This document shows positions 3,201-57,264 of a DNA stretch of 64,000 nucleotides, one piece after another; position 1 is the first letter of the stretch; every line of letters begins with the position of its first letter. Made by a program: the position numbers and the translations under genes. Source of the stretch: a bacterium (GTDB lineage: Bacteria; Patescibacteriota; Minisyncoccia; UBA6257; UBA9933); assembly GCA_030693235.1 (NCBI GenBank), contig JAUYBE010000006.1:139601-203600 (forward strand), in the 5' to 3' direction. The notes under the pieces are model-generated. The model was not told where the DNA came from. It worked only from the letters and a program-made list of their open reading frames with translations, and did no database searches.

Positions 3201-3202
3201 AT

Positions 3203-6367: not shown

Positions 6368-6910
6368 ATGCTTTCTCTAAAATTTATAATAGGTCTTTTA
6401 ATCCTAATTCTTTCCTTCCATATATTAACTACTATCAATCATTGGTATTGGACTTATCCCTGGCTTGATATACCAATGCATTTTCTTGGCGGTTTTTGGG
6501 TGGCGATGGTGTTCTTGTATTTTTGGCGCTCTGCCCATATTTCTATCGGCGCCGGGCGTTTGTCGACTCCAGCGGTCGACACCGCCCTACGCTCTCGGTT
6601 TGCCGACTCCAACTTTGTCGGAGACCAAGCTCGGCGAACCTCCGAGAGTTGCCGTACGAAACACGGGAAGATCGCTAATTCGTTTATTTTGTTGATTTTA
6701 GTGTTGAGTTTTGTGGCTCTAATCGGCGTTTTCTGGGAATTTTATGAATTTCTTTACGATGTTTTAATTTCCAGCCGCGGTTATTCGGGGTTTGCGCGAT
6801 TGGGCGCCGCCGACATGATAGGAGATTTATTTTTTGACCTTTTAGGCGGCTTGACGTTTTTGATAATTTGCCGCATAATGAATTTAAATAATAATAAAAC
6901 AATACAATAA
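6368..6910 (+). CDS. hypothetical membrane protein with an internal GC-rich segment
   Basis: Multiple hydrophobic helices. No family recognised. Confidence 0.4.
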   Translation: MLSLKFIIGLLILILSFHILTTINHWYWTYPWLDIPMHFLGGFWVAMVFLYFWRSAHISIGAGRLSTPAVDTALRSRFADSNFVGDQARRTSESCRTKHGKIANSFILLILVLSFVALIGVFWEFYEFLYDVLISSRGYSGFARLGAADMIGDLFFDLLGGLTFLIICRIMNLNNNKTIQ

Positions 6911-10719: not shown

Positions 10720-10790
10720 GTTTTTAGGTTTTAGTTTTTAGGTTTTAGATAAAAAAATCTAACACCTAACACCTAACACCTAACACCTAA
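10720..10790. repeat. family A themed palindrome abutting the rpoA start
   Basis: Same motif and orientation. Ends 4 nt before the GTG start at 10795. Confidence 0.8.
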
Positions 10791-12040: not shown

Positions 12041-12063
12041 TTAAAAAGTCGCAATAATTAAAT

Positions 12064-12153
12064 TCATACGAAAATACGAAAACATACGAAATTACGAAAA
12101 CTAACTTTCGTACATTCGTACAATTTCGCACTTTCGTAAGAAAATTTCGTATG
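12064..12153. repeat. family B themed palindrome (TACGAAA)n / (TTTCGTA)n whose 3' arm includes the tuf ATG
   Basis: catacgaaaatacgaaaacatacgaaattacgaaaa ... tttcgtacattcgtacaatttcgcactttcgtaagaaaatttcgtATG. Confidence 0.8.
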
Positions 12154-13350
12154 GCAGAAAAAGCAAAATTTGAAAGAGTTAAGCCGCACATTAATGTTGG
12201 AACTATCGGTCATGTCGATCACGGCAAAACAACTTTAACCGCGGCCATCACTCATGTTCTTAAATTAAAAGGTCTTATCGCGAAAGAGGAGTCGGTTGAT
12301 CAAATCGATAACGCGCCGGAAGAGAAAGCCCGGGGCATTACTATCGCTTTGCATCACTCGGAATATGAATCCGAGAAACGGCATTACGCTCATATCGACG
12401 CTCCGGGACACGCCGATTACATTAAAAATATGATTACCGGCGCGGCTCAAATGGATGGCGCGGTTTTGGTAGTGGCGGCGACTGACGGTCCTATGCCTCA
12501 AACGCGCGAACACATTCTTTTGGCCCGTCAGGTTGGCGTGCCGTCTCTCGTTGTTTTTTTAAACAAAGTTGATATGGTTGATGACCCGGAATTGGTTAGC
12601 TTGGTGGAAGCCGAGGTAAGGGAACTTTTGAAGAAATATAATTTCCCGGGAGATGAAACTCCGATTATAAAAGGATCGGCTCTTAAGGCGCTGGAGGCGC
12701 AATCAGTCGATGACGAAGCGATTAAACCGATTTTGGAATTAATAAAAGCATTGGACGAATACATTCCCGAACCGACGCGAGAAATTGATAAGCCGTTTTT
12801 GATGCCGGTTGAAGATATTTTCTCGATTGAGGGTCGGGGAACCGTGGTAACCGGTCGGATTGAAAGGGGAATGGTTAAAATTAACGAGGAAATAGAAATT
12901 ATCGGTTTGAAACCCACTCAAAAAACGGTTGTAACGGGCATTGAAATGTTTAATAAGCTTCTTGACGAAGGCCGGGCCGGCGACAATGTCGGCATTTTAC
13001 TCCGCGGTCTTAAAAAGGAAGATGTTGAACGGGGTCAGGTTTTGGCGAAGCCGGGGAGCGTGACTCCTCACACAGAATTCGAAGCGGAAGTTTACGTACT
13101 TTCAAAAGAGGAAGGCGGCAGGCATACGCCATTCTTCAAAGGATATAAACCGCAACTTTATATTCGAACCACCGACGTTACCGGAGAAGTGATTTTACCG
13201 GAAGGCATTGAAATGGTAATGCCGGGCGATACAATTAATCTAAAAGTTAATTTAATCGCGCCGGTGGCTTTGGAAGAAAAACAGCGTTTTGCCATTCGTG
13301 AAGGAGGCAAGACTGTCGGCGCCGGAGCGGTAACGAAGATATTGAAGTAG
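12151..13350 (+). CDS. tuf: elongation factor Tu
   Basis: [20 protein letters not shown]-domain; 399 aa. Confidence 0.95.
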
Positions 13351-13698: not shown

Positions 13699-13790
13699 AA
13701 TTTTGCTTGGTGAGTGATGAGTTTTCCTTATCTTCAACTCTCCGATCTTGGTCGGAGAAGCGAAGAAATCTAAGGAAAGCCCTTCTAATT

Positions 13791-13822
13791 TTCCCCTCCG
13801 ACCTTGCGTCGGAGGGGTTTTT
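13791..13822 (+). terminator. intrinsic terminator (CCCCTCCGAC...GTCGGAGGGG + T-run) downstream of rpsJ
   Basis: 10-bp GC-rich stem followed by TTTTTTT. Confidence 0.6.
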
Positions 13823-13929
13823 TGATTTTAGCAACTCATACGCGATCGCGCAAAAAGTTGATAATACAATCTATTGGCATATACACTTGTAAATTTTCGC
13901 GCATTCTTTCATAATTAAATTGGCCGTTG

Positions 13930-14110
13930 ATTGGAGGCGTTTCAGCGGGCGGTAAAGAAGCGCACTCACTAAATAAAAAAAATTGGAGGTCACCATTTGC
14001 CGCTCGCTGAAACGCCTGCCCCGATTGACATAAATTTTATTATTTGTTATTCTTAACTCACTAAAAAGATTTAGCTTAAAAAATGAGGGGCTAAATCCCT
14101 CATTTTTATA
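13930..14110 (+). ncRNA. candidate structured RNA / leader between rpsJ and rplC, closed by a terminator-like hairpin
   Basis: Long-range inverted repeat ggaggcgtttcagcgggcgg / ccgctcgctgaaacgcctgcc. Terminator-like hairpin atgaggg..ccctcat plus T-rich tail at 14082-14108. Confidence 0.2.
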
Positions 14111-14129
14111 TTTTTATTAAAATAAAATT

Positions 14130-18818: not shown

Positions 18819-19049
18819 ATGAAAAGAACACTACAAGGAACAATAGTTTCCGATAAAATGAATAAAACCAGAGTTGTGGCTGTAACGCGTCTTAAAAAAC
18901 ATCCGATATATCATAAATATTATAAAGTAACGCGGAAATTTAAGGCGCATGACGAAAAAAACGAATATAAGGCCGGAGAAAAAGTAATCATTGAAGAAAC
19001 AAGGCCGATCAGCAAAGATAAAAGATGGAGAATTATTGGGAAACAATAA
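18819..19049 (+). CDS. rpsQ: 30S ribosomal protein S17
   Basis: [18 protein letters not shown]...[27 protein letters not shown]. Confidence 0.85.
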
Positions 19050-19050
19050 G

Positions 19051-19118
19051 TTTTTAGGTTTTAGTTTTTAGGTTTTAGAGAATTTCTAACACCTAACACC
19101 TAACACCTAACACCTAAA
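19051..19118. repeat. family A themed palindrome abutting the rplN start
   Basis: Same motif and orientation. Ends 4 nt before the ATG at 19123. Confidence 0.8.
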
Positions 19119-20706: not shown

Positions 20707-21087
20707 ATGTATACAGATTTATTAATAAAACTTAAAAACGCCCAGGCGGTAAAAAAAGAAAGCGTTAAAATCCATTATTCAAAAATGGATGAGCGGATTC
20801 TTGAAGTTTTAAAAGAAAATAATTATATAAAAGATTTTGATAAAAAAGGAAAAGGAACGAAGCGAGTGATGGAGATTGAATTAAAATATTACAACGAAGG
20901 AAAAGCGATAAGCGGAATTAAATTTATCAGTAAACCGTCGCGCCGAATTTATATCGGTTACAAAGATATCAGAGCCACAAAGCACGGTTATGGTTTGTCG
21001 GTTGTTTCAACGCCGAAAGGAATTATAACCGGCAAAGAGGCGAGGAAAATAAAAGTCGGCGGAGAGATGTTGTTTGAGATATGGTAA
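20707..21087 (+). CDS. rpsH: 30S ribosomal protein S8
   Basis: MYTDLLIKLKNAQ... uS8 pattern. Confidence 0.9.
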   Translation: MYTDLLIKLKNAQAVKKESVKIHYSKMDERILEVLKENNYIKDFDKKGKGTKRVMEIELKYYNEGKAISGIKFISKPSRRIYIGYKDIRATKHGYGLSVVSTPKGIITGKEARKIKVGGEMLFEIW

Positions 21088-21089
21088 GA

Positions 21090-21180
21090 GCATACGAAAA
21101 TACGAAAACATACGAAAAATACGAAAACTAACTTTCGTACATTCGTACAATTTCGTACTTTCGTAAGAAAACTTCGTATG
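21090..21180. repeat. family B themed palindrome whose 3' arm includes the rplF ATG
   Basis: gcatacgaaaatacgaaaacatacgaaaaatacgaaaa...tttcgtacattcgtacaatttcgtactttcgtaagaaaacttcgtATG. Confidence 0.8.
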
Positions 21181-24460: not shown

Positions 24461-25198
24461 ATGATAGCAATCATAATGTATGGTCCTCCGGGCTCCGGTA
24501 AAGGAACTCAGGCTAAGCTTTTAGCCGATAAATTCGGGTTGATTCATTTTGACACAGGGAAATACATTGAACGAGTTGTTCACAATTCAAAAAATAAAAA
24601 AAATAAAATAATTCAAAAACAGCGCGAATTATTTGATTCCGGAATTTTATGCGATCCTTCTTGGGTTTTTAAAATTGTAAGCGAAAAAACTCGCCAGTTG
24701 GTTAAAATTGGTTTTGGTATTGTCTTTAGCGGCTCCCCCCGGACGTTTTACGAAACCTTTGGCATAAAACACGAAACAGACGCGAAAATTAAAAAAAACA
24801 CGAAACAGACGCGAAAATTAACAAGGGGTTTAATTGATATTTTAGAAAAATATTACGGCAAGAAAAATGTTTTTGTTTTTAATATTGATATTTCCGATAA
24901 AAATTCAATCAAAAGAAACGGCAATCGTTTAATGTGCTCGGTTTGCGGGACTCAGATATTAAATAAAGTTTTAAAGTTTAAAAGTTTAAAAGTTTCAAAG
25001 TGTCCGTTTTGCGGCGGAAAACTTTATCGCCGGACATTAGACAAACCGGAAATCATTAAAGTAAGATTAAAAGAATATCGGGAAAGAACATTGCCGATTC
25101 AAAAAGAATTGAAAAAACGCGGTTATAAAATTATTGATATTAATGGCGAGTCCTTGCCGGAAAAAGTTCATAAAAAAATATCTTCTTATTTAACTTAG
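24461..25198 (+). CDS. adk: adenylate kinase (zinc-LID type) carrying repeat-derived insertions
   Basis: GPPGSGKGTQA P-loop. CSVCG...CPFCGG LID. Internal 29-nt direct repeat and an AAGTTTAAAAGTT array. Confidence 0.8.
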   Translation: MIAIIMYGPPGSGKGTQAKLLADKFGLIHFDTGKYIERVVHNSKNKKNKIIQKQRELFDSGILCDPSWVFKIVSEKTRQLVKIGFGIVFSGSPRTFYETFGIKHETDAKIKKNTKQTRKLTRGLIDILEKYYGKKNVFVFNIDISDKNSIKRNGNRLMCSVCGTQILNKVLKFKSLKVSKCPFCGGKLYRRTLDKPEIIKVRLKEYRERTLPIQKELKKRGYKIIDINGESLPEKVHKKISSYLT

Positions 25199-31494: not shown

Positions 31495-32361
31495 ATGAAA
31501 AGCAGCATATATTTTGACGAAAAATCGGAGCGGAGAAGAAAGCGGATGTTAAAAATCAAGATTTACGCGGGATTAGCGGCTTTTTTTGTTTTGCTCATCG
31601 GCGCGGGGTATTTGATCGTTTATTCTCCGCTATTTCAAATTAAAAACATTTCAATATTTCGGTCGTCCGACGACCGAAATTTGACATCGGACGTTCAGAA
31701 ATTAAAAGAAAATCTTAAAAATTTCTTTACCAACCAATCAAAAATTGCCGAATTTTTGGGCCCTGAAAATATTTTGATTTGGAAATCGGAAAAATCCGCT
31801 GAGTTTATAAAAAATTATCATCAAATCGCGGAATTGAAAATCGAAAAGCATTATTTGGGACGGGAAATAAAAATCAGCGTTTCGGAAAGAGAGCGATTTG
31901 GCATTTGGTGCTTCATAACGCGGAACTACGCGGAAGATAACGCGGAACTACGCGGAAATAGTCTGCGTGAGTCAGCATGCTGGTGGTTTGATAAAAAGGG
32001 TGTTATTTTTTCGGAAGCGTTGAAGGCGGAAGGGCAATTGATAAATAAAGTAGATGATTTTTCCGGCCGTTCCTTAAATCTCGGCGAACCGGTTCTTGAA
32101 GAAAAATTTCTTTCTAATTTGTTTAAAATTTTTGAAATTCTTGAAAAATCGGATTTGAAAATAAAATCGCTGAAATTGGAAAATCTTAAACTTCAAGAAG
32201 TTGTTACCGATTCGCCGTTAATGCCGAAAATCCATTTCAGCTTAAGAATTAATTCGGAATTCGCCTTAGCCGCTTTGGATTCCATCAAAAAAATCGGATT
32301 TAGTAAAATAGAGTATATCGATTTAAGAGTGGAGAATAGAGCATATTACAAACTTAAGTAA
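31495..32361 (+). CDS. hypothetical membrane-anchored protein, possibly FtsQ/DivIB-like (POTRA)
   Basis: Single N-terminal TM helix. IKISVSERERFGIWC resembles the POTRA beta-strand. Contains a tandem ACGCGGAA insertion. Confidence 0.25.
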   Translation: MKSSIYFDEKSERRRKRMLKIKIYAGLAAFFVLLIGAGYLIVYSPLFQIKNISIFRSSDDRNLTSDVQKLKENLKNFFTNQSKIAEFLGPENILIWKSEKSAEFIKNYHQIAELKIEKHYLGREIKISVSERERFGIWCFITRNYAEDNAELRGNSLRESACWWFDKKGVIFSEALKAEGQLINKVDDFSGRSLNLGEPVLEEKFLSNLFKIFEILEKSDLKIKSLKLENLKLQEVVTDSPLMPKIHFSLRINSEFALAALDSIKKIGFSKIEYIDLRVENRAYYKLK

Positions 32362-32365
32362 AATT

Positions 32366-34207
32366 TTATAGTTTGTAAATAAATATTGATTTACCCGCTT
32401 TAAAATCCGGCTGATACGGATTTTTTATTTCTTTCAGCCATTGGTATTCGTTTTCCGGACTTCTTGATTGGCCCGGATGAAGTTCGCCAAAAGCGTTTTG
32501 AAGAGTATTAATTGAAATCGCCAACCATCCAATATTTTCGTATTTCGGATTATTTTTCGATGATTGCCAATATTCAGCTTTATCTCCCAAATAATATTTC
32601 GGGTTGCCGCCGCCGAAATAATCAATGGCGATCTTTTTTATGTCATTGTTATAGTCATTGTCATTGTTTCTATCATTCACCCATTTAGCTAGTCGTTTCA
32701 AATCCTGACCCCAGTCGTAGTTAGAATCCACGGCGTAACGATAACCGTTATTTGTTCCGCCGGCGAATTGGTTGAAATAAGAAAGAAAATGAGGATAAAC
32801 CAACAAGGTTTCGGCAAAATACCAAACCATTAAAACGGCGATTAAAATTTTTTTAGTTTTTGCTTTTTTGCCATTAATCCATTTTTTAATCGCGCCGGCA
32901 GTTAAGATATAAATAAACGGCATTGTCGGCAGAATATGCCGAATACCGATATTCAACGGACTTTTAATACTGTAAAGCCAATAGAAAATCACAAATGAAA
33001 TCATTGCGAATTCGGCGAAATGAAGACCGAGATAGTCCATTAAACGACATTTGACATTTGACACTTGACATTTGACATTTTTAACAATTCTCCAAGAAGC
33101 AAAAATAAAAGCAAGAAGAATTAATATCAGCGACGGAATAGATTCTTTTAAAATAAAAAGTACTGGAAAATAATACCACCAACCAACTGCCGAAACTTCG
33201 CCCAAGAAATAACCGGTATTACCGCCGGATGAACGTTGCATCACCATTAAAACGCCGAGCATATATTCTCCAAGCGGCCTTAAAATTTTATTATTGGCCA
33301 TCCAAATATTAATTTCCGCCAAACATCGTAAATTCAGTTTACAGCTTTCCCAATTTGCGTCCGGGCCGCCGGCAAAAGAAGCTAAAGTGAATTTTGTGTC
33401 GGCAAACTGTTTTTCAATCGGATAATTAATCGTAAACAAGAAATAAACCGCGTAGACCAAGGCGTAGCCGATAATAAAAATCAATAAAAGCGCTTTAATA
33501 TAATGAAAAGCTTTATTTTGCTGTTTGTCGTAATAAATTTTCCAGATATAAAAAATAACGATTAAAAATATAAAAAACGGAATTAAAAGCACGGCAGAAA
33601 ATTTCATCAATTGGGCGACGCCGAAAGCCAAGCCGGCGAAAATTAAATATTTTTGCGACGGCCCAAGGAGAAATTTTACAAAATAATAAGTGGCGATGAA
33701 TATTCCCAGAGCCGCGCCGAGGTCAGTAGTAACATAATGGCCGTGAGCAAGTACGGTCGGAGAAAGGGAAAAGAGAAAAGCGGGAAACAGCGCCCACCAG
33801 CGGCCCATAAGTTCTTTTCCCCAAATATAAATAAAAATTATTAAGAGGAGAGTTAAAAGCATCGGGCCCAAACGCGACCACTGGATAATTTTATCGGCGT
33901 CGTTTCCGGATTCATATAAAAATTGGTTGCCGGCTTCCCATTGGCCGTTAATGTCATTTTGCCAAGCGGATTTGTCAGTCGGAAAATTCAACTTGTGAAA
34001 TAATAACGGCAAAGCGGCTAAAGTTTTTACCAAAGGCGGATGTTCGGGATTTAAACGATAATCCAGATATTTGACGTAGCCGTAGCCGGCCGGAATGTGC
34101 GCCAGTTCATCCATTGTGGCCGATTCCTGGAGAGAGGCGTTGAGCATCAAAAAAAATGACGCTGAAACAATCGCGGCCAACAAAAGCCAATTAATGTATT
34201 TATTCAT
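32366..34207 (-). CDS. GT-C fold membrane glycosyltransferase (GT39 / ArnT / PMT_2-like)
   Basis: About 12 TM helices. An N-terminal MDELAH first-loop acidic motif. Contains tandem CATTTGACA and TCATTG arrays. Confidence 0.55.
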   Translation of the reverse strand: MNKYINWLLLAAIVSASFFLMLNASLQESATMDELAHIPAGYGYVKYLDYRLNPEHPPLVKTLAALPLLFHKLNFPTDKSAWQNDINGQWEAGNQFLYESGNDADKIIQWSRLGPMLLTLLLIIFIYIWGKELMGRWWALFPAFLFSLSPTVLAHGHYVTTDLGAALGIFIATYYFVKFLLGPSQKYLIFAGLAFGVAQLMKFSAVLLIPFFIFLIVIFYIWKIYYDKQQNKAFHYIKALLLIFIIGYALVYAVYFLFTINYPIEKQFADTKFTLASFAGGPDANWESCKLNLRCLAEINIWMANNKILRPLGEYMLGVLMVMQRSSGGNTGYFLGEVSAVGWWYYFPVLFILKESIPSLILILLAFIFASWRIVKNVKCQVSNVKCRLMDYLGLHFAEFAMISFVIFYWLYSIKSPLNIGIRHILPTMPFIYILTAGAIKKWINGKKAKTKKILIAVLMVWYFAETLLVYPHFLSYFNQFAGGTNNGYRYAVDSNYDWGQDLKRLAKWVNDRNNDNDYNNDIKKIAIDYFGGGNPKYYLGDKAEYWQSSKNNPKYENIGWLAISINTLQNAFGELHPGQSRSPENEYQWLKEIKNPYQPDFKAGKSIFIYKL

Positions 34208-35833: not shown

Positions 35834-35911
35834 AATCACAAAATATAACACTTTTTAATAATTACTATGATATCAAACGATCGTGTGATATCATAGTAAT
35901 GCGTTTTTATT

Positions 35912-37480
35912 TTAATTTAAAATAACCACATACCCATTCTCCAGGATTTGATTTTTTTGTTCGGGTAAAATATAGAAGAGATTTTTCTCTTTTTGTTTTT
36001 CCGGAGTGAAAGTGTCGGTAATGAACATTACGGTTTGCGCCGGCATTGGGATACCGCGGACGTCAACACCGCCGGCTTCAACGATAACGTATTTTGGCGT
36101 TTCTTTCGGCAGAGAATTTAATTCGCGGCCGATTTGAACGTAATCGGCGGAAAAAGCTCCTTGAACATTGTAATTTTGTCCCCATTTAATGAAATAAGTA
36201 TTGTAGGCCTCAAACACAAGAATAGAAAGCAGAAAGTAAAAAGTAGAAAGTAAAAAAATTTTTATTCGTATATTCGTAAATATTCGTAATTTCGTAAATT
36301 GTTCGTAAAGCCAAACACCGCCAAAACCGGCTAAAATAAAAATTGGCGGAATCATTATAATCGCGCGGAGAGCGTGCGGCATACCTTCGTTGGAAACAAC
36401 AACTGGAAGAGCGGCGATAATTAGCCAAGCGAATAAAATTAAGAATGGTAATTTTGGGAAGTCCGACTTCCTTAATATTGATTTGGTTCCCAAAATAGTT
36501 CCTATTATAAATAAAATTCCGACCGGCCAAAAAAGTTCCGGTTTGCCCGCGTAATTATGGCGCCAATTATAATCGCCGCTGAAATTAAACATTCCGGCGG
36601 TCTTTAAAATATTAACTGTTAAATCTTTAATCGGGGCAGGAGAATTGAAAACAGAAATTTGGGTTGTTCGCCCGAAGAAATCCTGAGGGTTTTGCAGAAA
36701 ATATAATCCCAATGGCGCGGCAACAATAATAGCTATTAGAATATAGCCACTAGCCACTAGTAGTATTTTTTTACGAATTTGCCAATTTTTATTTCCGAAC
36801 CAGTAGTAAAATAAAATTGTTAAAATTAAAAGCGGCGTGGCGCGATAGGCGATATAAGTGTGAAAACCAAAACCATAGAAAATTCCACCAAACAAAGAAA
36901 AAAGTATAGCTCGCCCCTGTCCAGTCAACTGGACAAGGGATTGATTATTTTGATTATTTGGAGCGGTAGATTTTAACTTATTAAGAGACGCTAAAAGAAA
37001 ATATATTCCCCAGACAAGAAAGAATGGCGCCATTATCGCGCGAAAACCGATACGGGAAAAAAGAATATGCCAAAAGCTCACGGCGAGAAGAAAAGATGAA
37101 AGTAGGGCGATAAACTCCGCCTGCCTGTCTGGCGGGCGGAGTTTAAACAACTCTCTTGTTAAAAAATACGTTCCCAATACCGTTAAAATTCCGAACACCG
37201 CTGCTACGCTTCTCGGTACCCACGGTTCGTGGCCAAATTTAACAATAAAAAATCCGATGATATTCGGCCAAAGCCCTTCGCGGCCGTTATTTTCCGGATA
37301 AAAAACTTTTAAATTTCCGGTTTCCCACGCCTCTACGCCATTATTGGCGTAAATTGCTTCGTCGGGATAAAGTCCGGGCGGCAGTTCGACGATATTGTAT
37401 AAACGCAGAAAAGAGGCTATAATTAGAATAACAAAAACTATTAACCATTGACTTTTGACTATTGACGATAATTTGCTCAT
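35912..37480 (-). CDS. GT-C fold membrane glycosyltransferase (GT39 / ArnT / PMT_2-like), second copy
   Basis: LPPGLYPDEAIYANNG first-loop DE motif and many TM helices. Contains internal TACGAAA-family repeats and GC-rich palindromes. Confidence 0.6.
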   Translation of the reverse strand: MSKLSSIVKSQWLIVFVILIIASFLRLYNIVELPPGLYPDEAIYANNGVEAWETGNLKVFYPENNGREGLWPNIIGFFIVKFGHEPWVPRSVAAVFGILTVLGTYFLTRELFKLRPPDRQAEFIALLSSFLLAVSFWHILFSRIGFRAIMAPFFLVWGIYFLLASLNKLKSTAPNNQNNQSLVQLTGQGRAILFSLFGGIFYGFGFHTYIAYRATPLLILTILFYYWFGNKNWQIRKKILLVASGYILIAIIVAAPLGLYFLQNPQDFFGRTTQISVFNSPAPIKDLTVNILKTAGMFNFSGDYNWRHNYAGKPELFWPVGILFIIGTILGTKSILRKSDFPKLPFLILFAWLIIAALPVVVSNEGMPHALRAIIMIPPIFILAGFGGVWLYEQFTKLRIFTNIRIKIFLLSTFYFLLSILVFEAYNTYFIKWGQNYNVQGAFSADYVQIGRELNSLPKETPKYVIVEAGGVDVRGIPMPAQTVMFITDTFTPEKQKEKNLFYILPEQKNQILENGYVVILN

Positions 37481-40419: not shown

Positions 40420-41280
40420 ATGATTAAAAAAGCCATTATTCCGGTTGCCGGGTTAGGAACAAGATTTTTGCCGGCGACAAAAGCTCAGCCAAAAGAAATG
40501 TTGCCGATTATAGATAAGCCGGTGATTCAGTATTTGGTTGAAGAAGCGGTTAAATCGGGGATTATCGATATTATTTTTGTTACCGGACGAGGCAAGCGGG
40601 CGATTGAAGACCATTTTGATTACGCGCCGGAACTGGAATCCCGCCTGCTTCAAAAAAATAAAGAAGATGTTTTTAAAAAAGTGAGAGCGATTTCCGAGTT
40701 GGCGAATTTTGCTTATGTCAGGCAAAAATCGCCTAAGGGCGATGGCGATGCTTTGCTTTGCGCCGATCATTTAATTAACGATGAGCCGGTGGCCGTTCTT
40801 TTTGGAGACGATGTTGTTGACGGCAAAATGCCTTGTCTTTCGCAAATGATTAAAGTTTTTGAGAAATATAAAGATTGCGTAGTCGCTCTTGAAGAAGTGC
40901 CGAGACAGGAAGTTAAGCATTACGGCGTCGTTAAGGCGGTTAAAATTTCCGAACAAATTTTTGAAATTCAAGACATTATTGAAAAACCGAATCCCAAAGA
41001 AGCGCCGTCTAATTTAACCATTGTCGGCAAATATATTCTTATTCCCGAAGTTTTTGAGGAATTAAAAAAGATTAAGCAGATAGAAAAAGGGGAACTTAAA
41101 CTGGCTGACGCTTTAAAATCTTTATTAAAAAAACGTCCGATTTACGGATATAAATTTGAAGGCAAGAGATATGATTGCGGAAGCAAAATCGGTTTTTTGA
41201 AAGCAACAGTTGATTTTGCTTTAAAACACCCGGAAGTAAAAAAAGATTTTAAAAAATATTTAAAGAGTTTAAAAATATAA
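40420..41280 (+). CDS. galU: UTP--glucose-1-phosphate uridylyltransferase
   Basis: KAIIPVAGLGTRFLPATKAQPKEMLPIIDKP signature. Confidence 0.85.
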   Translation: MIKKAIIPVAGLGTRFLPATKAQPKEMLPIIDKPVIQYLVEEAVKSGIIDIIFVTGRGKRAIEDHFDYAPELESRLLQKNKEDVFKKVRAISELANFAYVRQKSPKGDGDALLCADHLINDEPVAVLFGDDVVDGKMPCLSQMIKVFEKYKDCVVALEEVPRQEVKHYGVVKAVKISEQIFEIQDIIEKPNPKEAPSNLTIVGKYILIPEVFEELKKIKQIEKGELKLADALKSLLKKRPIYGYKFEGKRYDCGSKIGFLKATVDFALKHPEVKKDFKKYLKSLKI

Positions 41281-41323
41281 AATTATTGATTTTTCAATAA
41301 ATCTGTGTTAATATTTGATTCAT

Positions 41324-42386
41324 ATGAACGAAAATCCATTACAACGACTCGAAGAATTGAAAGAGCTTGCCCGGCGCTTAGCCGGGCGGCTTTGACGTTG
41401 AGACAAAGAGAAATCGCGTTAAAGAGATTGAATACGAATTTTCCGACCCTGATTTTTGGAAGAACAGGGAAATTGCCGACGCTAAAATAAAGGAAGTCGG
41501 CGAGTTAAATGAATTAGTAAAAAAATTTGATGAAATTGAAAAAAAATTGGCGGTTCCGTTAGATAGGCAGGCGGAAATATTACTTAAAGAAATTCAATCC
41601 AAACTTCGCAAGCTGGAAATTGAAAATTTATTTACCGGAAAATACGACAAGGGCCCGGCGATTGTTTCAGTTTTTGCCGGCGCCGGAGGACAGGATGCCG
41701 AAGATTGGGCCGGAATGCTTTATGAGATGTATGTGAAATTCAGCGAACAACGCGGCTGGAAAACAAAAATTATTCACGAAAGTTTTGGCGATTTTCAGTC
41801 AAGAACCGGCCGTCATCTGATTAAAGATATTGCTTTGGAAATTAAAGGCGATTACGCTTACGGTTATTTGAAAAAAGAAGCCGGCGTTCATCGCTTGGTA
41901 AGAATTTCGCCTTTTTCAGCGGAAAAGAAAAGGCATACTTCTTTCGCGTTGGTTGAAATTTTGCCGGAATTGAGCGAAATAAAAGAAGACGAATTCAAGA
42001 TTCCCGAAGAAGATTTGAAAATTGAATTTTTCCGTTCCAGCGGTCCGGGCGGCCAGAACGTCAATAAAGTTGAAACTGCCGTAAGAATAGTCCATACTCC
42101 GACCGGTTTATCGGCGAGCTCCCAAGTCGAACGCTCCCAATCCCAGAACCGCGAACGGGTTATGAATTTGCTTAAAGCCAAATTGATAAAACTAATGGAA
42201 GAAAGCCGGATAAAAGAATTAGGCCAGTTGCGAACCAAAGTAAAGCCGGAATGGGGGAATCAAATCCGTTCTTACGTGCTTCATCCGTATAAAATGGTAA
42301 AAGACCACAGAACAGGCGTTGAAACAAGCCGGGCAGAGGAAGTTTTAGAAGGAGATATTGATATGTTTGTGGAAAGTGAGGTATAA
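41324..42386 (+). CDS. prfB: peptide chain release factor 2 with programmed +1 frameshift (frame 0 41324-41392, then +1 frame 41394-42386)
   Basis: MNENPLQRLEELKELARRLAGRL then CTT TGA C at 41390-41396. The downstream frame has SPF and GGQ motifs. The listed ORF 41305..41490 is a frame artefact. Confidence 0.85.
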
Positions 42387-51515: not shown

Positions 51516-51519
51516 TTGT

Positions 51520-51590
51520 TTAGGTGTTAGGTGTTTAGGTGTTAGGTGTTAGTTAATTTCTAAAACCTAAAAGCTAAAACCTAAAAGCTT
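51520..51590. repeat. family A themed palindrome in reverse orientation, abutting the dnaX start on the minus strand
   Basis: gtttaggtgttaggtgtttaggtgttaggtgttag...ctaaaacctaaaagctaaaacctaaaagc. Orientation relative to the downstream gene is as for the other copies. Confidence 0.8.
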
Positions 51591-51656
51591 AAATTACATT
51601 TTACATTAAAACATCCACCCTTGACAAGTTTTGGCAGTCTGCTATCCTCTTAATAT

Positions 51657-52127: not shown

Positions 52128-52853
52128 TTGTACCAATTACAACTTGAAAAATTTTCCGGACCGATTGAAAAACTTCTGGAACTGATCGAGAGGAAAAAAT
52201 TGGAAATCACCGAATTAAATTTAGCCGACGCAACGGCTGATTTTTTAAATTACGTTAAAAGGATTGAAAATATAGAACCGCGTCTTTTGGCGGATTTCGT
52301 GGTAATAGCCGCCAAACTTTTACTTATCAAATCAAAAGCGCTTCTGCCGAATCTTCAATTAACCGAAGAGGAAGAAAAAGACATAAAAGATTTGGAAAAC
52401 CGCCTCAAAATTTACCGGCAATTCAAGCCGGCGATTGACCATCTTAAAGAATTGTCGGAACGGAACGGAGTCTCGATTTCCCAGCCGCTCTTCAGCCGCC
52501 GACCGATAATTTTTTATCCGTCGGAAAATATTAAAATCGGCGAATTGCATAAAGCCATCAAAGGAATTTTTGACAACTTTAAACAATTTCAAAACGAGAC
52601 CAAAATAATCAAATCTTCGCTTATTACTTTGGAGGAAAAAATCGAGGAGATTATAAATCGGCTGAACGCGGACTCACGCAGACTTGACGCGGACTCGCGC
52701 GGAAAAATTGGTTTTGATGAATTAATAAGGGGAAAACCGCGTTCGGAAATTATTGTTTTGTTTTTAGCCTTACTTCATCTATTGGCAAAGCAATCGATAA
52801 GGGTTGAGCAAAAAGAAAAATTTTCTGATATAATTATTACTAAACAACCATGA
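52128..52853 (+). CDS. scpA: segregation and condensation protein A
   Basis: Kleisin-like ScpA pattern. Directly upstream of scpB. Confidence 0.7.
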   Translation: MYQLQLEKFSGPIEKLLELIERKKLEITELNLADATADFLNYVKRIENIEPRLLADFVVIAAKLLLIKSKALLPNLQLTEEEEKDIKDLENRLKIYRQFKPAIDHLKELSERNGVSISQPLFSRRPIIFYPSENIKIGELHKAIKGIFDNFKQFQNETKIIKSSLITLEEKIEEIINRLNADSRRLDADSRGKIGFDELIRGKPRSEIIVLFLALLHLLAKQSIRVEQKEKFSDIIITKQP

Positions 52854-53377
52854 CTATGACCAATGACAAAATTACGGCCGCTATTGAAGCGATTCTTTTC
52901 GTCTACGGCGAGCCGATGGAAATAAAACGAATAGCCGATATTTTGAAAGTTGAAGAAAACACCGTAGATGAAGCATTGAAAGAGCTTGAGAGCGGATATT
53001 TGGCGGAAAACAGGGGATTAAAGCTGATTTTTAACAGTCGGCAGGTCCAATTGGCGACCAAGCCCGATTTCGCCGATTTTCTAGAAAATTTTATCAAAGA
53101 AGAATTTAAGGAGAATTTAACTCCCGCTTCTTTGGAAACGCTTTCGCTTATCGCTTATTTGGGACCGCTTTCCCGCGTTCAAATAGAGTATCATCGCGGA
53201 GTTAATTCCAGTTTTATTTTAAGAAATTTATTAATCCGCGGTTTGATTGAGCGTTTTCCTAATCCTCAAAAAGGCAATGTTTATCTTTACCAACCGAGCT
53301 TTGATTTGTTAAAATATTTGGGAATATCAAAAATCGAAAAACTGCCGGAGTATGAGAAGTTTAAGACTATAATATAA
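52850..53377 (+). CDS. scpB: segregation and condensation protein B
   Basis: AAIEAILFVYGEPMEIKRIADIL winged-helix pattern. Confidence 0.75.
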   Translation: MTMTNDKITAAIEAILFVYGEPMEIKRIADILKVEENTVDEALKELESGYLAENRGLKLIFNSRQVQLATKPDFADFLENFIKEEFKENLTPASLETLSLIAYLGPLSRVQIEYHRGVNSSFILRNLLIRGLIERFPNPQKGNVYLYQPSFDLLKYLGISKIEKLPEYEKFKTII

Positions 53378-53447
53378 GTTTTTAGGTTTTAGTTTTTAGG
53401 TTTTAGTGAATTATCTAACACCTAACACCTAATACCTAACACCTAAA
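53378..53447. repeat. family A themed palindrome abutting the ATG at 53451
   Basis: Same motif and orientation. Ends 3 nt before the ATG. Confidence 0.8.
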
Positions 53448-54617: not shown

Positions 54618-55666
54618 TCGTAAAAATTTTAAGCTATTTTATTTTATCTTTCGCCGTTACTTTGGCTTTGGCGCCGATTTTGATTCGTTTTTTATACAAA
54701 TATCAATGCTGGAAAAAAAAACCCAGAGAACAAACTTTCGGCGGTGAAAAAACTCCGATTTTCACCAAACTTCATAGCGTTAAGGAAATAACGGTTCCGC
54801 GGATGGGCGGCATTTTAATTTGGGGAACGGTTTTGATTATCAGCGTCGGCGTTTTTATAGCTTCTCAAATTTTACCCGAAGACTCGGCTTTTAAAATAAA
54901 TTTTCTTTCCCGCTCGCAAACCTGGTTGCCTTTGTTCGTTTTGATTTCAGCTTCGCTCTTGGGATTGGTTGACGACATTCTGGTTATTAAAAACAAAGGT
55001 AAATACATCGGCGGCGGCATTAGATTTAAAGTCAGACTGGCGCTTATTTCTTTAATCGCTCTGGCCGGCGCCTGGTGGTTTTATTACAAACTTGAATGGT
55101 CAAGCATTTATATCCCTTTTTACGGCAATCTGGAAATCAATGGTTTGTATATTTTACTTTTCATATTAGTTGTTTTGGCCACTTTTTCCGGCGGGATTGT
55201 TGACGGCTTAGATGGTTTGGCAGCCGGCAGTCTTTTGCCGATTTTTTCCGCGTTCGGAGTAATTGCCTATACCAAAGGAATGTACGATTTGACAGTTTTA
55301 ATTACGATAATTTTAGGCGCTTTAGCGACCTATTTGTGGTTCAATATCCATCCGGCGAAATTTTATATGGGCGAGACCGGTATTATGGGATTAACCGTAA
55401 CTCTGGCGGTAATCGCTTTGCTCACCAACAGCGTTTTATTTCTGCCAATCATCGCTTTTGTTTTGGTCGTTGAATCCGGTTCGGTGATTTTACAATTGCT
55501 TTCCAAAAAAATCAGAGGCAAAAAAATATTTTTATCCGCGCCCATTCATCATCATTTTGAAGCGCTTGGTTGGCCGGAAACGCAAATAGTGATGAGATTC
55601 TGGATTGTTTCGGCGGTAATGAGCGGTTTGGGACTCGTATTGTTCTTTTTGAGCAAATTCCTTTAA
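54593..55666 (+). CDS. mraY: phospho-N-acetylmuramoyl-pentapeptide transferase
   Basis: 10-TM MraY with a DDxxD-like GLVDDILVI motif and HHHFE. Confidence 0.85.
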   Translation: MYLTHAFLIVKILSYFILSFAVTLALAPILIRFLYKYQCWKKKPREQTFGGEKTPIFTKLHSVKEITVPRMGGILIWGTVLIISVGVFIASQILPEDSAFKINFLSRSQTWLPLFVLISASLLGLVDDILVIKNKGKYIGGGIRFKVRLALISLIALAGAWWFYYKLEWSSIYIPFYGNLEINGLYILLFILVVLATFSGGIVDGLDGLAAGSLLPIFSAFGVIAYTKGMYDLTVLITIILGALATYLWFNIHPAKFYMGETGIMGLTVTLAVIALLTNSVLFLPIIAFVLVVESGSVILQLLSKKIRGKKIFLSAPIHHHFEALGWPETQIVMRFWIVSAVMSGLGLVLFFLSKFL

Positions 55667-55668
55667 TA

Positions 55669-55764
55669 TCATACGAAAGTGCGAAAATATACGAAATTAC
55701 GAAACATAAAAACAACTTCGTACATTCGTAAAATTTCGTATTTTCGTAAGAGATTTTTGTAATG
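55669..55764. repeat. family B themed palindrome ending in the ATG at 55762
   Basis: tcatacgaaagtgcgaaaatatacgaaattacgaaa...cttcgtacattcgtaaaatttcgtattttcgtaagagatttttgtaATG. Confidence 0.75.
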
Positions 55765-57198: not shown

Positions 57199-57202
57199 TC
57201 AG

Positions 57203-57264
57203 GTTTTAGGTTGTAGGTTTTAGGTTTTAGAACCTAACACCTAACACCTAACACCTAACACCTA
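57203..57264. repeat. family A themed palindrome ending 0 nt before the ftsW ATG
   Basis: ggttttaggttgtaggttttaggttttagaacctaacacctaacacctaacacctaacacctaATG. Confidence 0.8.

What the first reader, a model, noticed from the sequence alone, without database searches (positions are those of the whole stretch)
36226..37148. GT39-like glycosyltransferase gene (minus strand) contains several embedded palindromes and tandem motifs
Inside the 35912..37480 CDS are four elements. A tandem (AGAAAGTAAAA) array lies at 36226-36258. A family-B-like array (TTCGTAAAT) lies at 36262-36309. A GC-rich palindrome cccctgtccagtcaactggacaaggg lies at 36914-36939. A 38-nt palindrome taaactccgcctgcctgtctggcgggcggagtttaaac lies at 37111-37148. 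All are in frame and sit in a low-GC gene. The second GT39 gene (32366..34207) likewise holds (CATTTGACA)x4 at 33046-33082 and (TCATTG)n at 32640-32680 (encoding NDNDYNND). Both paralogues accumulate repeat insertions in loops.
Basis: seen in the sequence. Interest (0 to 1): 0.5.

Follow-up and report, generated by a model that had tools for sequence, protein, structure and literature searches.

The report
Palindromic mobile-element remnants inside a glycosyltransferase gene
The odd palindromes and short repeats inside this membrane glycosyltransferase gene are real: one is a leftover of a small, hairpin-shaped mobile DNA element that sits in frame inside many unrelated genes of these ultra-small (Patescibacteria) bacteria, much like the "Rickettsia palindromic elements".

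Summary
All four motifs are at the stated coordinates and exceed chance, though the repeat units were mis-stated. Gene A (35912..37480, minus) is an intact GT-C-fold glycosyltransferase. Across 80 orthologues, length variation sits mainly in five short K/R-rich loops, inferred cytoplasmic.

- **Palindrome 37111-37148** lies in loop 1. In a syntenic relative (L081) the same codon position holds a 132-nt-longer GC-rich nested hairpin with nearly the same outer stem. That element has a conserved Y-shaped structure (54 pairs, 39 with compensatory changes) and no Rfam match. It sits in frame, in both orientations and at least three reading frames, in MnmA, release factor, ParB, cysteine desulfurase and this glycosyltransferase.
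- **A full copy is in this window** at 6523-6677 (112 bits), in frame in another membrane-protein gene.
- **Reading of 37111-37148:** most likely the outer stem left after internal deletion.
- **Palindrome 36914-36939** (loop 2) is significant but unique; its origin is unresolved.
- **TTCGTA array** (loop 5) is one arm of the window's intergenic "family B" inverted arrays.
- **TAGAAAG array** encodes a conserved TM helix and is not an insertion.
- **Gene B:** the heptamer array is length-neutral; NDNDYNND is a true 8-aa insertion.

No paper describing this element was found.

The parts
35912..37480 (-). Gene A: intact 522-aa GT-C-fold membrane glycosyltransferase (PMT_2/ArnT/AglB-like) that hosts the four motifs
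   Evidence: ORF. Orthologues at 55-70% identity are annotated GT39/PMT_2. AF2 model has pLDDT 85.6 and pTM 0.89. Best Foldseek matches are AglB, STT3, ArnT and PMT.
37111..37148 (-). GC-rich palindrome encoding residues 111-124 (LFKLRPPDRQAEFI) in loop 1 (hot spot 1). Interpreted as the surviving outer stem (P1) of a Y-shaped palindromic element whose core was deleted.
   Evidence: Arms 15 nt, 93% complementary; z = -5.8. L081 has a 132-nt-longer element at the same codon position with nearly the same stem: 19 nt at 95% and 24 nt at 87.5%. The ancestral state is ELFxKKIALL.
36914..36939 (-). GC-rich palindrome encoding residues 181-189 (SLVQLTGQG) at hot spot 2. Unique sequence; origin unresolved (remnant of another hairpin element, or a de novo inverted duplication).
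   Evidence: Falls in insert columns of the orthologue alignment. No other copy in the window or in 96 loci.
36941..36959 (-). (TTGATTATT)x2 encoding NNQNNQ, directly next to the second palindrome in hot spot 2
   Evidence: TRF; insert columns.
36262..36309 (-). TTCGTA/TACGAA array (cores spaced 8-10-8) encoding residues 391-407 (LYEQFTKLRIFTNIRIK) at hot spot 5. It is a single arm of the window's 'family B' intergenic inverted arrays.
   Evidence: TRF score 62-64. Aligns in register with the intergenic arms. Forms no hairpin (z = +1.1). Orthologues P0007, P0037 and P0047 carry the same peptide.
36223..36256 (-). (TAGAAAG)n heptamer array encoding residues 409-420 (FLLSTFYFLLSI) inside TM helix 404-433. 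Not an insertion.
   Evidence: The same (TTTCTAC)n / LLSTFYFLLS module occurs at this helix and at the helix at residues 239-251 in many orthologues.
37437..37466 (-). Weak heptamer array (ACTATTG x4.3) encoding the N-terminal SSIVKSQWLIV
   Evidence: TRF score 39. At this score level chance arrays are common.
6523..6677 (-). Full-length copy of the Y-shaped palindromic element. It lies in frame, antisense, inside ORF 6368..6910, a small membrane protein. It adds about 40 aa (HISIGAGRLSTPAVDTALRSRFADSNFVGDQARRTSESCRTKHG) that most homologues lack.
   Evidence: Covariance-model hit of 112.5 bits, E = 1.2e-23. Fold -71.7 kcal/mol, z = -5.0. Most homologues are about 140 aa and match the query in two stretches flanking the insert.
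32366..34207 (-). Gene B: 613-aa PMT_2-family GT-C protein, a remote paralogue of gene A
   Evidence: PMT_2 E = 2.5e-11. A versus B E = 0.001. Synteny with gene A is conserved in L081.
33046..33080 (-). (GACATTT)x5 array encoding KNVKCQVSNVKCR in a K/R-rich loop. Length-neutral relative to the closest orthologues.
32638..32667 (-). (TGTCAT)n array encoding NDNDYNND: an 8-aa insertion in the C-terminal soluble domain
   Evidence: shared with L019; absent from L081, L080 and L057.
12058..12156 (.). Intergenic 'family B' element: four TACGAAA cores followed by four in inverted orientation
21084..21172 (.). Intergenic 'family B' inverted array
55664..55756 (.). Intergenic 'family B' inverted array

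Best explanation
Gene A is a working GT-C glycosyltransferase whose short loops tolerate extra sequence. I infer these loops to be cytoplasmic. They have repeatedly taken up two kinds of repeat DNA that are common in this lineage.

**(1) A GC-rich, Y-shaped palindromic mobile element of about 125-155 nt.**
- It has an outer stem P1, a conserved stem P2 and two inner hairpins P3 and P4.
- It is dispersed in Paceibacteria genomes and survives inside essential genes only where it keeps the reading frame open, as Rickettsia palindromic elements do.
- One full copy is in this window at 6523-6677.
- The palindrome at 37111-37148 is what remains of a copy that sat in loop 1 of gene A. The 132-nt interior was lost, probably by hairpin-stimulated deletion. 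That left an in-frame stem-loop adding about 8 residues.

**(2) Short tandem arrays of period 7-10, which are 25-fold or more over-represented in this genome.**
- The TTCGTA array in loop 5 is one arm of the intergenic 'family B' inverted arrays.
- The TAGAAAG array has recoded a TM helix without changing its length.

**The palindrome at 36914-36939** is probably another hairpin remnant or a local inverted duplication in loop 2.

**Shown:**
- The motifs are real and non-random.
- They lie at orthologue hot spots.
- The element family exists, with conserved structure, dispersal and in-frame residence.
- A full copy lies in the window.
- Sequence and position match between the window palindrome and the stem in L081.

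**Inferred:**
- The direction of the event (deletion of a once-full copy).
- Mobility by transposition.
- The cytoplasmic side of the loops.
- That the inserts are translated and neutral.
For: **Significance.**

**Hot spots.** Thirty and then 80 orthologues of 461-619 aa vary in length mainly at five loops. Hairpins with a stem of at least 11 are six times denser in insert columns than in core columns (P = 7e-6; 12 versus 29 hairpins, one of the 12 being a run-of-N artefact in L009).

**Loop 1 across relatives.**
- L081 is syntenic with the window.
- It carries at loop 1 a nested hairpin (dG about -100 kcal/mol for the 225-nt segment folded).
- Its flanks TTTAAATTCCGCCTGCC...AGACAAACAGGCGGAGTATAT align with the window's TTTAAACTCCGCCCGCC|AGACAGGCAGGCGGAGTTTAT. 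The difference is exactly 132 nt, or 44 codons.
- L004 and L006 carry the same core in the opposite orientation at the same site (93% over 56 nt).

**Dispersal.**
- A metagenome pattern scan found 14 loci. In-frame copies sit in MnmA, release factor, ParB, cysteine desulfurase and the glycosyltransferase at loops 1 and 4. One 649-kb contig holds two copies.
- The covariance model found 22 hits in 747 kb of loci, including two in a single glycosyltransferase gene.
- It found one full copy in the window, which is an insertion relative to most homologues of its host.

**Structure.** 54 predicted pairs, 39 with compensatory changes.

**P1 travels with the element.** The inner stem CGCCTGTTTTC...GAAAATAGGCG recurs at different sites and in different reading frames.

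**Phylogenetic setting.** All bearers of the element at loop 1, and the window, fall in one subclade (distance to the window at most 0.33). Members with the minimal ELFxKKIALL loop are interspersed among them.

**Translation tolerance.** The element has 2.9 open frames of 6, against 1.4 in shuffles.

**Family B.** The arm aligns in register with the intergenic arms.

**Precedent.** In-frame palindromic elements are documented for Rickettsia (PMC10969869).
Against: - The window palindrome shares only about 35 nt with the L081 element, and part of that is adjacent host coding sequence.
- The covariance model scores it as just a generic hairpin (12.5 bits, E = 0.7).
- The closest orthologues by identity (P0002, L001, L003) have no insert at loop 1. 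A shared ancestral insertion would therefore need several clean losses; otherwise the site was hit repeatedly.
- Palindrome 36914-36939 has no relative anywhere in the data, so its assignment rests on analogy.
- No transposase or other mobilising gene was found among 29 window ORFs scanned.
- No target-site duplications were evident (inspection only).
- No read-level or expression data were available.
Confidence: 0.6

Rival explanations
1. **Landing pad, not remnant.** The short palindromes are pre-existing hairpins, and the Y-element core inserts into their loops. On this view the window shows the empty-site state and L081 the filled state.
For: - Window and L081 differ by a clean 132-nt block located at the hairpin tip.
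- Simple, unique, near-perfect hairpins with 0-5-nt loops are common at the same hot spots in other orthologues (L006, L008, L009, L012, L028).
- G·U pairs outnumber A·C pairs 37 to 10 on one strand. This fits a single-strand, hairpin-recognising mechanism.
Against: - The inner part of P1 (CGCCTG...) is shared by copies at different sites and in different reading frames, so it moves with the element.
- The window stem carries that motif.
- The hairpin is itself an insertion relative to the ancestral ELFxKKIALL loop.
- Conserved housekeeping genes such as mnmA, prfB and parB are unlikely to have offered ready-made hairpins.
Confidence: 0.12
2. **Purely local origin.** The palindromes arose in situ by template-switch (quasi-palindrome) mutation and the arrays by replication slippage. 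No mobile element was involved, and the resemblance to the L081 stem is common descent of a local hairpin.
For: - Both palindromes are unique in 64 kb and in 96 loci.
- The genome has a strong general excess of short tandem arrays: 37 observed against 1.4 expected at TRF score 47 or more.
- Gene B's heptamer array and the TM-helix array are length-neutral recodings, which fits local homogenisation.
Against: - This does not explain why the stem sequence matches the flanks of a dispersed element at the same codon.
- It does not explain why a full copy of that element sits 30 kb away in the same window.
- The TTCGTA array matches the spacing and cores of intergenic family B arms elsewhere in the window.
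Confidence: 0.18
3. **Selected function.** The hairpins act within the mRNA or DNA, as an intragenic terminator or pause site, an RNase or protein-binding site, or a regulator of translation of this membrane protein.
For: - The folds are very stable (z = -5.8 and -3.7).
- The parent element shows extensive covariation and invariant unpaired nucleotides.
Against: - Neither hairpin is followed by a T-run, and neither is called terminator-like.
- Neither is conserved in orthologues, which carry unrelated inserts or none at the same loops.
- The parent element occurs in both orientations relative to host genes, which argues against a function in the host mRNA.
Confidence: 0.05
4. **Artefact or decay.** The motifs are assembly artefacts at repeats, or the gene is a decaying pseudogene.
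For: - The source is a metagenome-assembled genome. The exact protein is a singleton in the database (1 member, 1 contig).
- Gene A itself fails Pfam.
Against: - The ORF is full length with every invariant family residue present.
- The AF2 model is confident.
- Independent assemblies show the same kinds of in-frame inserts at the same loops.
- The Pfam failure is plausibly explained by inserts inside the PMT_2 region. Long orthologues also tend to lack Pfam hits (inference).
Confidence: 0.05

Closest known systems
Rickettsia palindromic elements (RPEs)
   Same: - Palindromic repeats of about 100-150 bp, dispersed in a reduced genome.
- Frequently inserted in frame in unrelated housekeeping ORFs, adding a peptide segment compatible with protein fold (PMC10969869).
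- Here: 125-155 nt, in frame in MnmA, RF, ParB, IscS-like, GT-C and a small membrane protein, always in loops or linkers.
   Different: - A different phylum (Patescibacteria/Paceibacteria), and the element is GC-rich in AT-rich genomes.
- Defined three-way-junction structure with heavy covariation and invariant junction nucleotides.
- The same family is translated in both orientations and in at least three frames, whereas each RPE family is described as encoding one conserved peptide.
- Sequence homology to RPEs was not tested.
MITEs with intragenic copies (ERIC, RU-1/2/3, Correia-type elements)
   Same: Small non-autonomous repeats with terminal inverted repeats, found between and occasionally within genes, and sometimes carrying open frames (PMC10969869; PMC2759123, listed).
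   Different: - No target-site duplication was seen (inspection only).
- No parent IS or transposase was found in the window.
- The conserved part is the internal structure, not only the termini.
REP/BIME elements and IS200/IS605-type hairpin elements (PATEs)
   Same: - Short GC-rich imperfect palindromes of 20-40 nt, like the two in gene A.
- Strand-asymmetric pairing (G·U 37 versus A·C 10) fits a single-strand intermediate, as in HUH/Y1 transposition. That mechanism is established knowledge and was not tested here.
   Different: - REPs are extragenic and high-copy. The two palindromes are intragenic and unique in 64 kb.
- No RAYT or TnpA gene was seen.
- GTAG/CGTC tags (PMC3733652) were not established.
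Hairpin-stimulated deletion and quasi-palindrome template switching in bacteria
   Same: Established mutational routes that shorten long palindromes or create and perfect short ones. They would yield the core-less stem at 37111-37148 and the many unique near-perfect hairpins at the hot spots.
   Different: These are mechanisms, not element families. Nothing here shows which of them acted.
PARCELs (palindromic amphipathic repeat coding elements) of Mollicutes
   Same: Palindromic coding repeats readable on both strands within ORFs of minimal-genome bacteria (PMC2996958, abstract seen).
   Different: PARCELs are tandem intragenic repeats that build surface proteins. They are not single dispersed insertions in housekeeping genes. 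The paper was not examined beyond its abstract.

Membership tests
GT-C glycosyltransferase, PMT_2 / GT39-GT83-like | Significant match to the Pfam PMT (PF02366) or PMT_2 (PF13231) profile | tested here: not met
   Gene A has no Pfam family at E <= 0.01. Gene B matches PMT_2 at 2.5e-11. Many gene-A orthologues carry PF13231 and/or PF02366. The failure is probably caused by inserts within the domain (inference).
GT-C glycosyltransferase, PMT_2 / GT39-GT83-like | GT-C fold: multi-pass TM core plus an extracytoplasmic C-terminal domain | tested here: met
   AF2 model with pLDDT 85.6 and pTM 0.89, about 11 TM helices and an alpha/beta domain at 434-522. Foldseek probability 1.0 to AglB (3wak), STT3, ArnT (5f15, 5ezm) and Pmt.
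GT-C glycosyltransferase, PMT_2 / GT39-GT83-like | Conserved acidic catalytic motif in the first external loop | tested here: met
   P39 D40 E41 A42 are nearly invariant, and N46 N47 E50 E63 N64 R67 E68 are invariant, in 30 orthologues. None overlaps a repeat.
GT39 specifically (protein O-mannosyltransferase) | Closer to PMT than to other GT-C families; dolichyl/polyprenyl-P-mannose donor and a protein acceptor | tested here: inconclusive
   Structural matches rank AglB/STT3 and ArnT (E 5e-8 to 4e-5) above Pmt1/2/4 (E about 2e-3). Substrate cannot be tested in silico.
RPE-like in-frame palindromic element (the Y-shaped element) | Sequence of 100-150 nt with extensive dyad symmetry and a stable fold | tested here: met
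   dG from -82 to -131 kcal/mol for segments of about 200-230 nt that include flanks. 54 consensus pairs. Window copy -71.7 kcal/mol, z = -5.0.
RPE-like in-frame palindromic element (the Y-shaped element) | Multiple dispersed copies per genome | tested here: met
   Two copies on one 649-kb contig (L085, L096). Two contigs of assembly QZGF01 (L091, L093). Two copies in one gene (L094). In the window there is one full copy plus the putative remnant; the rest of the source genome was not available.
RPE-like in-frame palindromic element (the Y-shaped element) | Inserted in frame in unrelated ORFs and absent from orthologues | tested here: met
   At least 13 intragenic copies in six host protein families, all open and in frame. 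Presence/absence polymorphism in the glycosyltransferase and in the ORF 6368 family.
RPE-like in-frame palindromic element (the Y-shaped element) | The palindrome at 37111-37148 is itself a member or derivative | tested here: inconclusive
   It has the same codon position and a 19/22-nt plus 24-nt match to the L081 copy's stem. It lacks the core, and the covariance-model score is not significant (12.5 bits).
MITE | Terminal inverted repeats plus target-site duplication, and a related autonomous IS | tested here: inconclusive
   P1 acts as a terminal inverted repeat. No consistent flanking direct repeats were seen on inspection of 12 copies. No transposase among 29 window ORFs scanned. No copy in viral contigs.
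REP / BIME | Extragenic, high-copy 20-40-nt palindromes | tested here: not met
   Both palindromes are intragenic and single-copy in the window and in 80 loci.
Intrinsic terminator | GC-rich stem followed by a T-run | tested here: not met
   Neither palindrome is called terminator-like on either strand.
Known RNA family (Rfam 15) | Covariance-model match | tested here: not met
   There is no hit at the element positions in L086, L093, L094 or L095 at E <= 1. The window gives only three tRNAs at gathering thresholds.

The most novel reading that the evidence does not exclude
The Y-shaped element may be a previously undescribed class of structured, strand-specific mobile element in Patescibacteria. 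It could be guided by hairpins or single strands, or be catalytically active as RNA. It would colonise essential coding sequences without destroying them, because it is depleted of stop codons in several frames. Core-less hairpins such as 37111-37148, and perhaps 36914-36939 and the many unique hairpins at the same loops, would then be its excision footprints. That would mark the element as still gaining and losing sites, and as a major source of the unexplained loop insertions and failed domain matches in these proteomes.
Probability: 0.25. Interest if true: 0.8.

Novelty: new member of a known kind. Interest (0 to 1): 0.62.

Why it matters
**Annotation.** Patescibacterial (CPR) proteins are known for odd low-complexity inserts and poor domain detection. 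Here a conserved glycosyltransferase loses its Pfam match while its insert-free orthologues keep theirs.

**Biology.** The result gives a second, phylogenetically remote case of 'selfish DNA inside protein-coding genes', previously best documented in Rickettsia. Both lineages have reduced genomes and host-dependent lifestyles. That makes it possible to ask whether compact genomes with little intergenic space channel small mobile elements into permissive protein loops.

**Mechanism.** The strong covariation, invariant junction nucleotides and strand asymmetry suggest a specific machinery that is still unknown.

Tried and rejected
- **Palindrome recurrence.** I searched both palindromes, exact and with up to 3 mismatches, in the window and as gapped patterns in 80-96 loci. 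They match only themselves, so neither is a dispersed short repeat at that scale.
- **Element-encoded peptide.** A profile of the peptide (SDGTGRPSAPAA...SETFRTK, alignment A2) searched against 5.8 billion proteins returned nothing at E <= 0.01. The query was too short, and one search was wasted.
- **Known RNA families.** Rfam found no family at the element.
- **Viral contigs.** No copy.
- **Host-derived stem idea, rejected.** I first thought the outer stem P1 was an inverted copy of host flanking sequence made at insertion, because P1 differs between host genes. I rejected this for the inner ~11 bp. The same CGCCTGTTTTC/GAAAATAGGCG stem occurs at glycosyltransferase loops 1 and 4, and it is read in different frames in L004 and L081.
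- **Terminator reading, rejected**.
- **Mobilising gene.** I scanned 29 of about 67 window ORFs against Pfam. All hits were housekeeping genes and none was a transposase.
- **Tree building.** A neighbour-joining tree timed out. I replaced it with average-linkage clustering on p-distances, so the tree-based statements are coarse.
- **Not attempted.** Extending beyond the 64-kb window into the 228-kb source contig.
Full report
**1. What is in the sequence**

Gene A (35912..37480, minus strand) is an uninterrupted 522-codon ORF. An identical protein is deposited as a hypothetical protein of an uncultured bacterial MAG.

The four motifs are at the stated coordinates:
- **Palindrome 1** has arms at 37111-37125 / 37131-37145: 15 nt, 93% complementary, 5-nt loop.
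- **Palindrome 2** has arms at 36914-36925 / 36928-36939: 12 nt, 92% complementary, 2-nt loop.
- As RNA they fold at -24.5 and -19.5 kcal/mol, with z = -5.8 and -3.7.
- Two such hairpins in one gene occur in only 0.2-0.3% of codon-order or dinucleotide shuffles.
- They are the only two hairpins of this size with GC of at least 0.5 in the 64-kb window, where 0.05 are expected.

The two tandem arrays are real, but their units were mis-stated:
- 36223-36256 is a heptamer array, TAGAAAG x4.9, or period 14 x2.2.
- 36263-36309 consists of TTCGTA cores spaced 8-10-8, giving period 18.
- None of 200 codon shuffles of the gene reached two arrays of this score.

In gene B, the array at 33046-33080 is (GACATTT)x5 and the one at 32641-32667 is (TGTCAT)x4.5.

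**2. The genomic background**

The window is an AT-rich (GC about 0.39) housekeeping region of a patescibacterial genome. It encodes EF-G, Obg, YchF, BipA, ScpA/B, FtsW, MurG, DnaX and release factor.

It is saturated with short tandem arrays:
- There are 37 arrays with TRF score of at least 47, against 1.4 in dinucleotide shuffles. Periods 7 and 14 dominate.
- Roughly half lie in or at the edge of the 11% of sequence that is intergenic, often as inverted pairs.
- About 18 lie inside CDSs, including EF-G, ScpA and adenylate kinase.

In-frame repeats are therefore a property of the genome, not of the two glycosyltransferase genes.

**3. The host protein and where the motifs fall**

- Gene A has no Pfam hit of its own. 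Its orthologues, at 55-70% identity, come from MAGs labelled Jorgensen-, Wolfe-, Lipton- and Colwellbacteria, Paceibacterota and Patescibacteria. Many of them are annotated GT39/PMT_2/ArnT-like.
- An AlphaFold2 model built on 30 orthologues is confident (pLDDT 85.6, pTM 0.89). It shows about 11 TM helices plus a C-terminal alpha/beta domain.
- Foldseek places the model in the GT-C fold. AglB/STT3 and ArnT rank ahead of Pmt1/2/4.
- The acidic PDEA motif of the first external loop and the other invariant residues are intact.
- Orthologues range from 461 to 619 aa. Nearly all the length variation falls mainly in five places: after residues ~115, ~171, ~232, ~340 and ~397.
- In the model these are the short connections 112-117, 171-179, 230-232, 337-342 and 396-404. 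All are K/R-rich.
- I infer that they are cytoplasmic. The inference rests on the positive-inside rule and on the known GT-C topology, in which the catalytic first loop and the C-terminal domain face outward.

Mapping the motifs onto this frame:
- Palindrome 1 encodes residues 111-124, in loop 1.
- Palindrome 2 encodes residues 181-189, at the end of loop 2, next to a (TTGATTATT)x2 repeat that encodes NNQNNQ.
- The TTCGTA array encodes residues 391-407, in loop 5.
- The TAGAAAG array encodes residues 409-420 (FLLSTFYFLLSI) inside TM helix 404-433.

That last peptide is conserved in orthologues. The same (TTTCTAC)n / LLSTFYFLLS module also occupies the helix at residues 239-251 in many lineages. 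It is therefore not a loop insertion.

**4. What the inserts are in relatives**

At the hot spots, many orthologues carry DNA that folds strongly:
- L004 and L006: -89 and -91 kcal/mol.
- L016: -78 kcal/mol.
- L015: -51 kcal/mol.
- L019, L026 and L034: AT-rich inverted heptamer arrays.

Hairpins with a stem of at least 11 are six times denser in insert columns than in core columns (P = 7e-6; 12 versus 29 hairpins, one of the 12 being a run-of-N artefact in L009). Nearly all the GC-rich near-perfect ones are in inserts.

**5. The key comparison**

L081 is a JGI contig that encodes orthologue P0045. It shares the window's gene order: a 137-aa protein, a T4SS-coupling-like ATPase, the glycosyltransferase, YchF, a small protein, and a second PMT_2 gene.

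- At loop 1, L081 holds a GC-rich nested hairpin (dG about -100 kcal/mol for the 225-nt segment folded).
- Between the same anchor codons, L081 has 192 nt and the window 60 nt. The difference is exactly 132 nt, or 44 codons.
- The flanks line up as follows:
  - window: TTTAAACTCCGCCCGCC | AGACAGGCAGGCGGAGTTTATC
  - L081: TTTAAATTCCGCCTGCC [TGTCGTGCGG...CCGTC] AGACAAACAGGCGGAGTATATT
- These stem sequences are absent from orthologues with the minimal, evidently ancestral loop ELFxKKIALL. They are therefore not host coding sequence.
- L004 and L006 carry the same core at the same site in the opposite orientation (93% over 56 nt, 100% over 20 nt).

**6. The element family**

*Dispersal.* A gapped pattern from the core, GCGGAATGTCTCGG-N40-65-GAGAGTCAAGG, found 14 metagenomic loci. 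The element there sits in frame in:
- MnmA, in three genomes;
- a peptide-chain release factor, in two genomes;
- ParB;
- a cysteine desulfurase;
- the glycosyltransferase, at loops 1 and 4.

Intergenic copies occur too, including two on one 649-kb contig. Host-gene names for these loci are my reading of conserved motifs in the translations; they were not profile-searched.

*Translation.* The element is read in at least three ways:
- SDGTGRPSAPAA..GLDSR..GDQAR..SETFRTK, the antisense reading, which is the commonest;
- VRNVSE..RAWS..ESRPPSAAGA.GRPVPS;
- CGMSRKRGELG..ESQGRGLPLEQADGRFRQK.

*Structure.* Twelve copies align to a Y-shaped structure: outer stem P1, invariant stem P2 (GCGGAA/UUCCG with an invariant U·G pair), and two inner hairpins P3 and P4.
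- 54 pairs are predicted, and 39 show compensatory changes.
- The junction and loop motifs are invariant: AUGUCUCGGAG, GCUUGG, GAGAGUCAAGG, CGCUGGAGC.
- G·U pairs outnumber A·C pairs 37 to 10. Excluding the invariant pair the count is 25 to 10, P = 0.017; the cells are not independent.
- The window copy is 9 kcal/mol more stable on the element's sense strand.
- Together these hint that one strand, as RNA or ssDNA, is the relevant form.
- Copies have 2.9 of 6 frames open, against 1.4 in shuffles.

*Known families and further copies.*
- No Rfam family matches, and no copy is found in viral contigs.
- A covariance model built from the alignment finds 22 copies in 747 kb of fetched loci, including two within a single glycosyltransferase gene.
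- It also finds a full-length copy in this window at 6523-6677, minus strand, at 112.5 bits and E = 1e-23.

*The window copy.* It lies in frame inside ORF 6368..6910, a small membrane protein. It adds about 40 residues that most homologues lack; three close relatives have them.

**7. Interpretation of each motif**

*Palindrome 1.* It is most simply the outer stem of a Y-element that once occupied loop 1 and lost its interior.
- It sits at the identical codon as the L081 copy.
- It carries the element's P1 motif (CCGCCTG).
- It is an insertion relative to the ancestral loop.
- The window's gene belongs to the one subclade in which loop 1 holds the element, in either orientation.
- Long palindromes are deletion-prone in bacteria. 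This is established knowledge and was not tested here.
- The reverse order of events remains possible: a hairpin first, with the core inserted into its loop later.
- That order is disfavoured because the inner P1 travels with the element between sites and reading frames.

*Palindrome 2.* It has no relative in any data I could reach. It resembles the many unique near-perfect hairpins seen at these loops in other orthologues. It may be another remnant or a local inverted duplication.

*The TTCGTA array.* It aligns core-for-core, with the same 8-10-8 spacing, to the arms of three intergenic inverted arrays at 12058-12156, 21084-21172 and 55664-55756.
- It is a single arm and forms no hairpin.
- Related peptides (KLRIFTNIRIK, FTNIRIK) in orthologues P0007, P0037 and P0047 suggest it is old.

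*The TAGAAAG array and gene B's (GACATTT)5.* Both are length-neutral recodings of existing segments.

*Gene B's NDNDYNND.* It is a real 8-aa insertion in the soluble domain.

*Terminators.* Neither palindrome looks like a terminator.

**8. Comparison with known systems**

- The closest analogue is the Rickettsia palindromic element. RPEs are palindromic repeats of about 150 bp, inserted in frame in many unrelated genes of a reduced genome (PMC10969869).
- Shared features: size, dyad symmetry, dispersal, in-frame residence and location in loops.
- Differences: the phylum, GC-richness in an AT-rich genome, a defined three-way junction with heavy covariation, and use of both orientations and several frames.
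- The element is not a REP. REPs are extragenic and high-copy, and those criteria fail.
- It cannot be called a MITE in the strict sense, because no target-site duplication or parent IS was seen.
- Seven full-text searches, five of them aimed at these bacteria or at intragenic repeat elements, found no description of such an element in Patescibacteria/CPR. The library is incomplete, so this is absence of evidence only.

**9. Verdict**

The 'insertions in loops' reading is right for three of the four motifs in gene A and for one of the two in gene B.

The larger point is that the window's genome hosts an RPE-like structured palindromic element: one full copy and one probable remnant in 64 kb. 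It also shows a genome-wide excess of heptamer arrays that reach into coding sequence.

I rate this a new member of a known kind, of moderate-to-good interest. The mobilising mechanism and the origin of palindrome 2 remain open.

Noticed in passing
window 2651-2732, 3202-3275, 10719-10790, 19049-19117, 51517-51593, 53377-53446, 57201-57265: Several short intergenic spacers between co-directional genes consist almost entirely of an inverted pair of heptamer arrays, (TTAGGTT)n then (CTAACAC)n. The arms pair for 6 of every 7 positions, with a periodic T·C mismatch. The left array often begins in the stop codon and the right array ends just before the next start codon. Function is unknown; terminator, processing site and protein-binding site are all possible.
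   Followed up: partly
window 3519-3546 and 3951-3982 (EF-G), 52666-52703 (ScpA), 24766-24821 and 24965-25001 (adenylate kinase), 31915-31957 (ORF 31495..32361): In-frame tandem arrays inside essential genes: (ACGCGGACTCG)n, (AGTTAAA)n, a 29-nt x1.9 repeat and a 22-nt x2 repeat. The EF-G GTPase domain and the adenylate kinase match their Pfam profiles over spans 60-100 residues longer than the profile, which suggests inserts.
   Followed up: partly
window 31654-31682: A 14-bp-stem hairpin, ATATTTCGGTCGTCCGACGACCGAAATTT, lies inside ORF 31495..32361. Its core resembles the CGACGTCCGACGTCG hairpins (peptide 'TSDV') seen at hot spots 2 and 3 of several glycosyltransferase orthologues (L006, L012, P0013, P0016, P0022). 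This may be a second hairpin family.
   Followed up: no
window 13699-14129: An unusually long (430 nt) intergenic region holds GC-rich hairpins: 13733-13760 (CTCCGATCTTGGTCGGAG), a terminator-like stem at 13790-13820, and a 100-nt palindromic unit at 13926-14025 (weak covariance-model hit, E = 0.6). There is no Rfam match. It could hold an undetected ncRNA or degenerate elements.
   Followed up: no
window 35861-35900 and 1085-1126: Two long AT-rich near-perfect palindromes. One has 20-nt arms between the convergent YchF and gene A ends and may be a bidirectional terminator. The other has 21-nt arms next to tRNA-Pro.
   Followed up: no
L094 3116-3270 and 3890-4047: One glycosyltransferase orthologue carries two full Y-elements, at loops 4 and 1, with the same inner P1 stem. 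This suggests intragenic or intragenomic spread.
   Followed up: partly
orthologue loci L001, L015, L008, L042, L041, L002: The heptamer (TTTCTAC)n, read in all three frames as LLSTFYFLLS, recurs as a ready-made hydrophobic helix at two different TM positions of the same protein family in many lineages. Other heptamers (AATTGGA -> NWKLEIGNWKL; AATTTTC -> NFQFSIFNFQ; CTAAATT -> LNSKFYILNS) recur at loops 1 and 2.
   Followed up: partly
L085 5523-5732 and L096 4973-5182: In a higher-GC 649-kb contig the repeated unit is 211 nt (95% identical between the two copies). The Y-element there has a longer outer stem, and both copies appear intergenic.
   Followed up: partly
window 41280-41547: The release-factor ORF (41547..42386, TTG start) matches the PCRF profile only from position 70. 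The upstream 270 nt may hold the N-terminal part in another frame, as in the programmed prfB frameshift, or a mis-called start.
   Followed up: no
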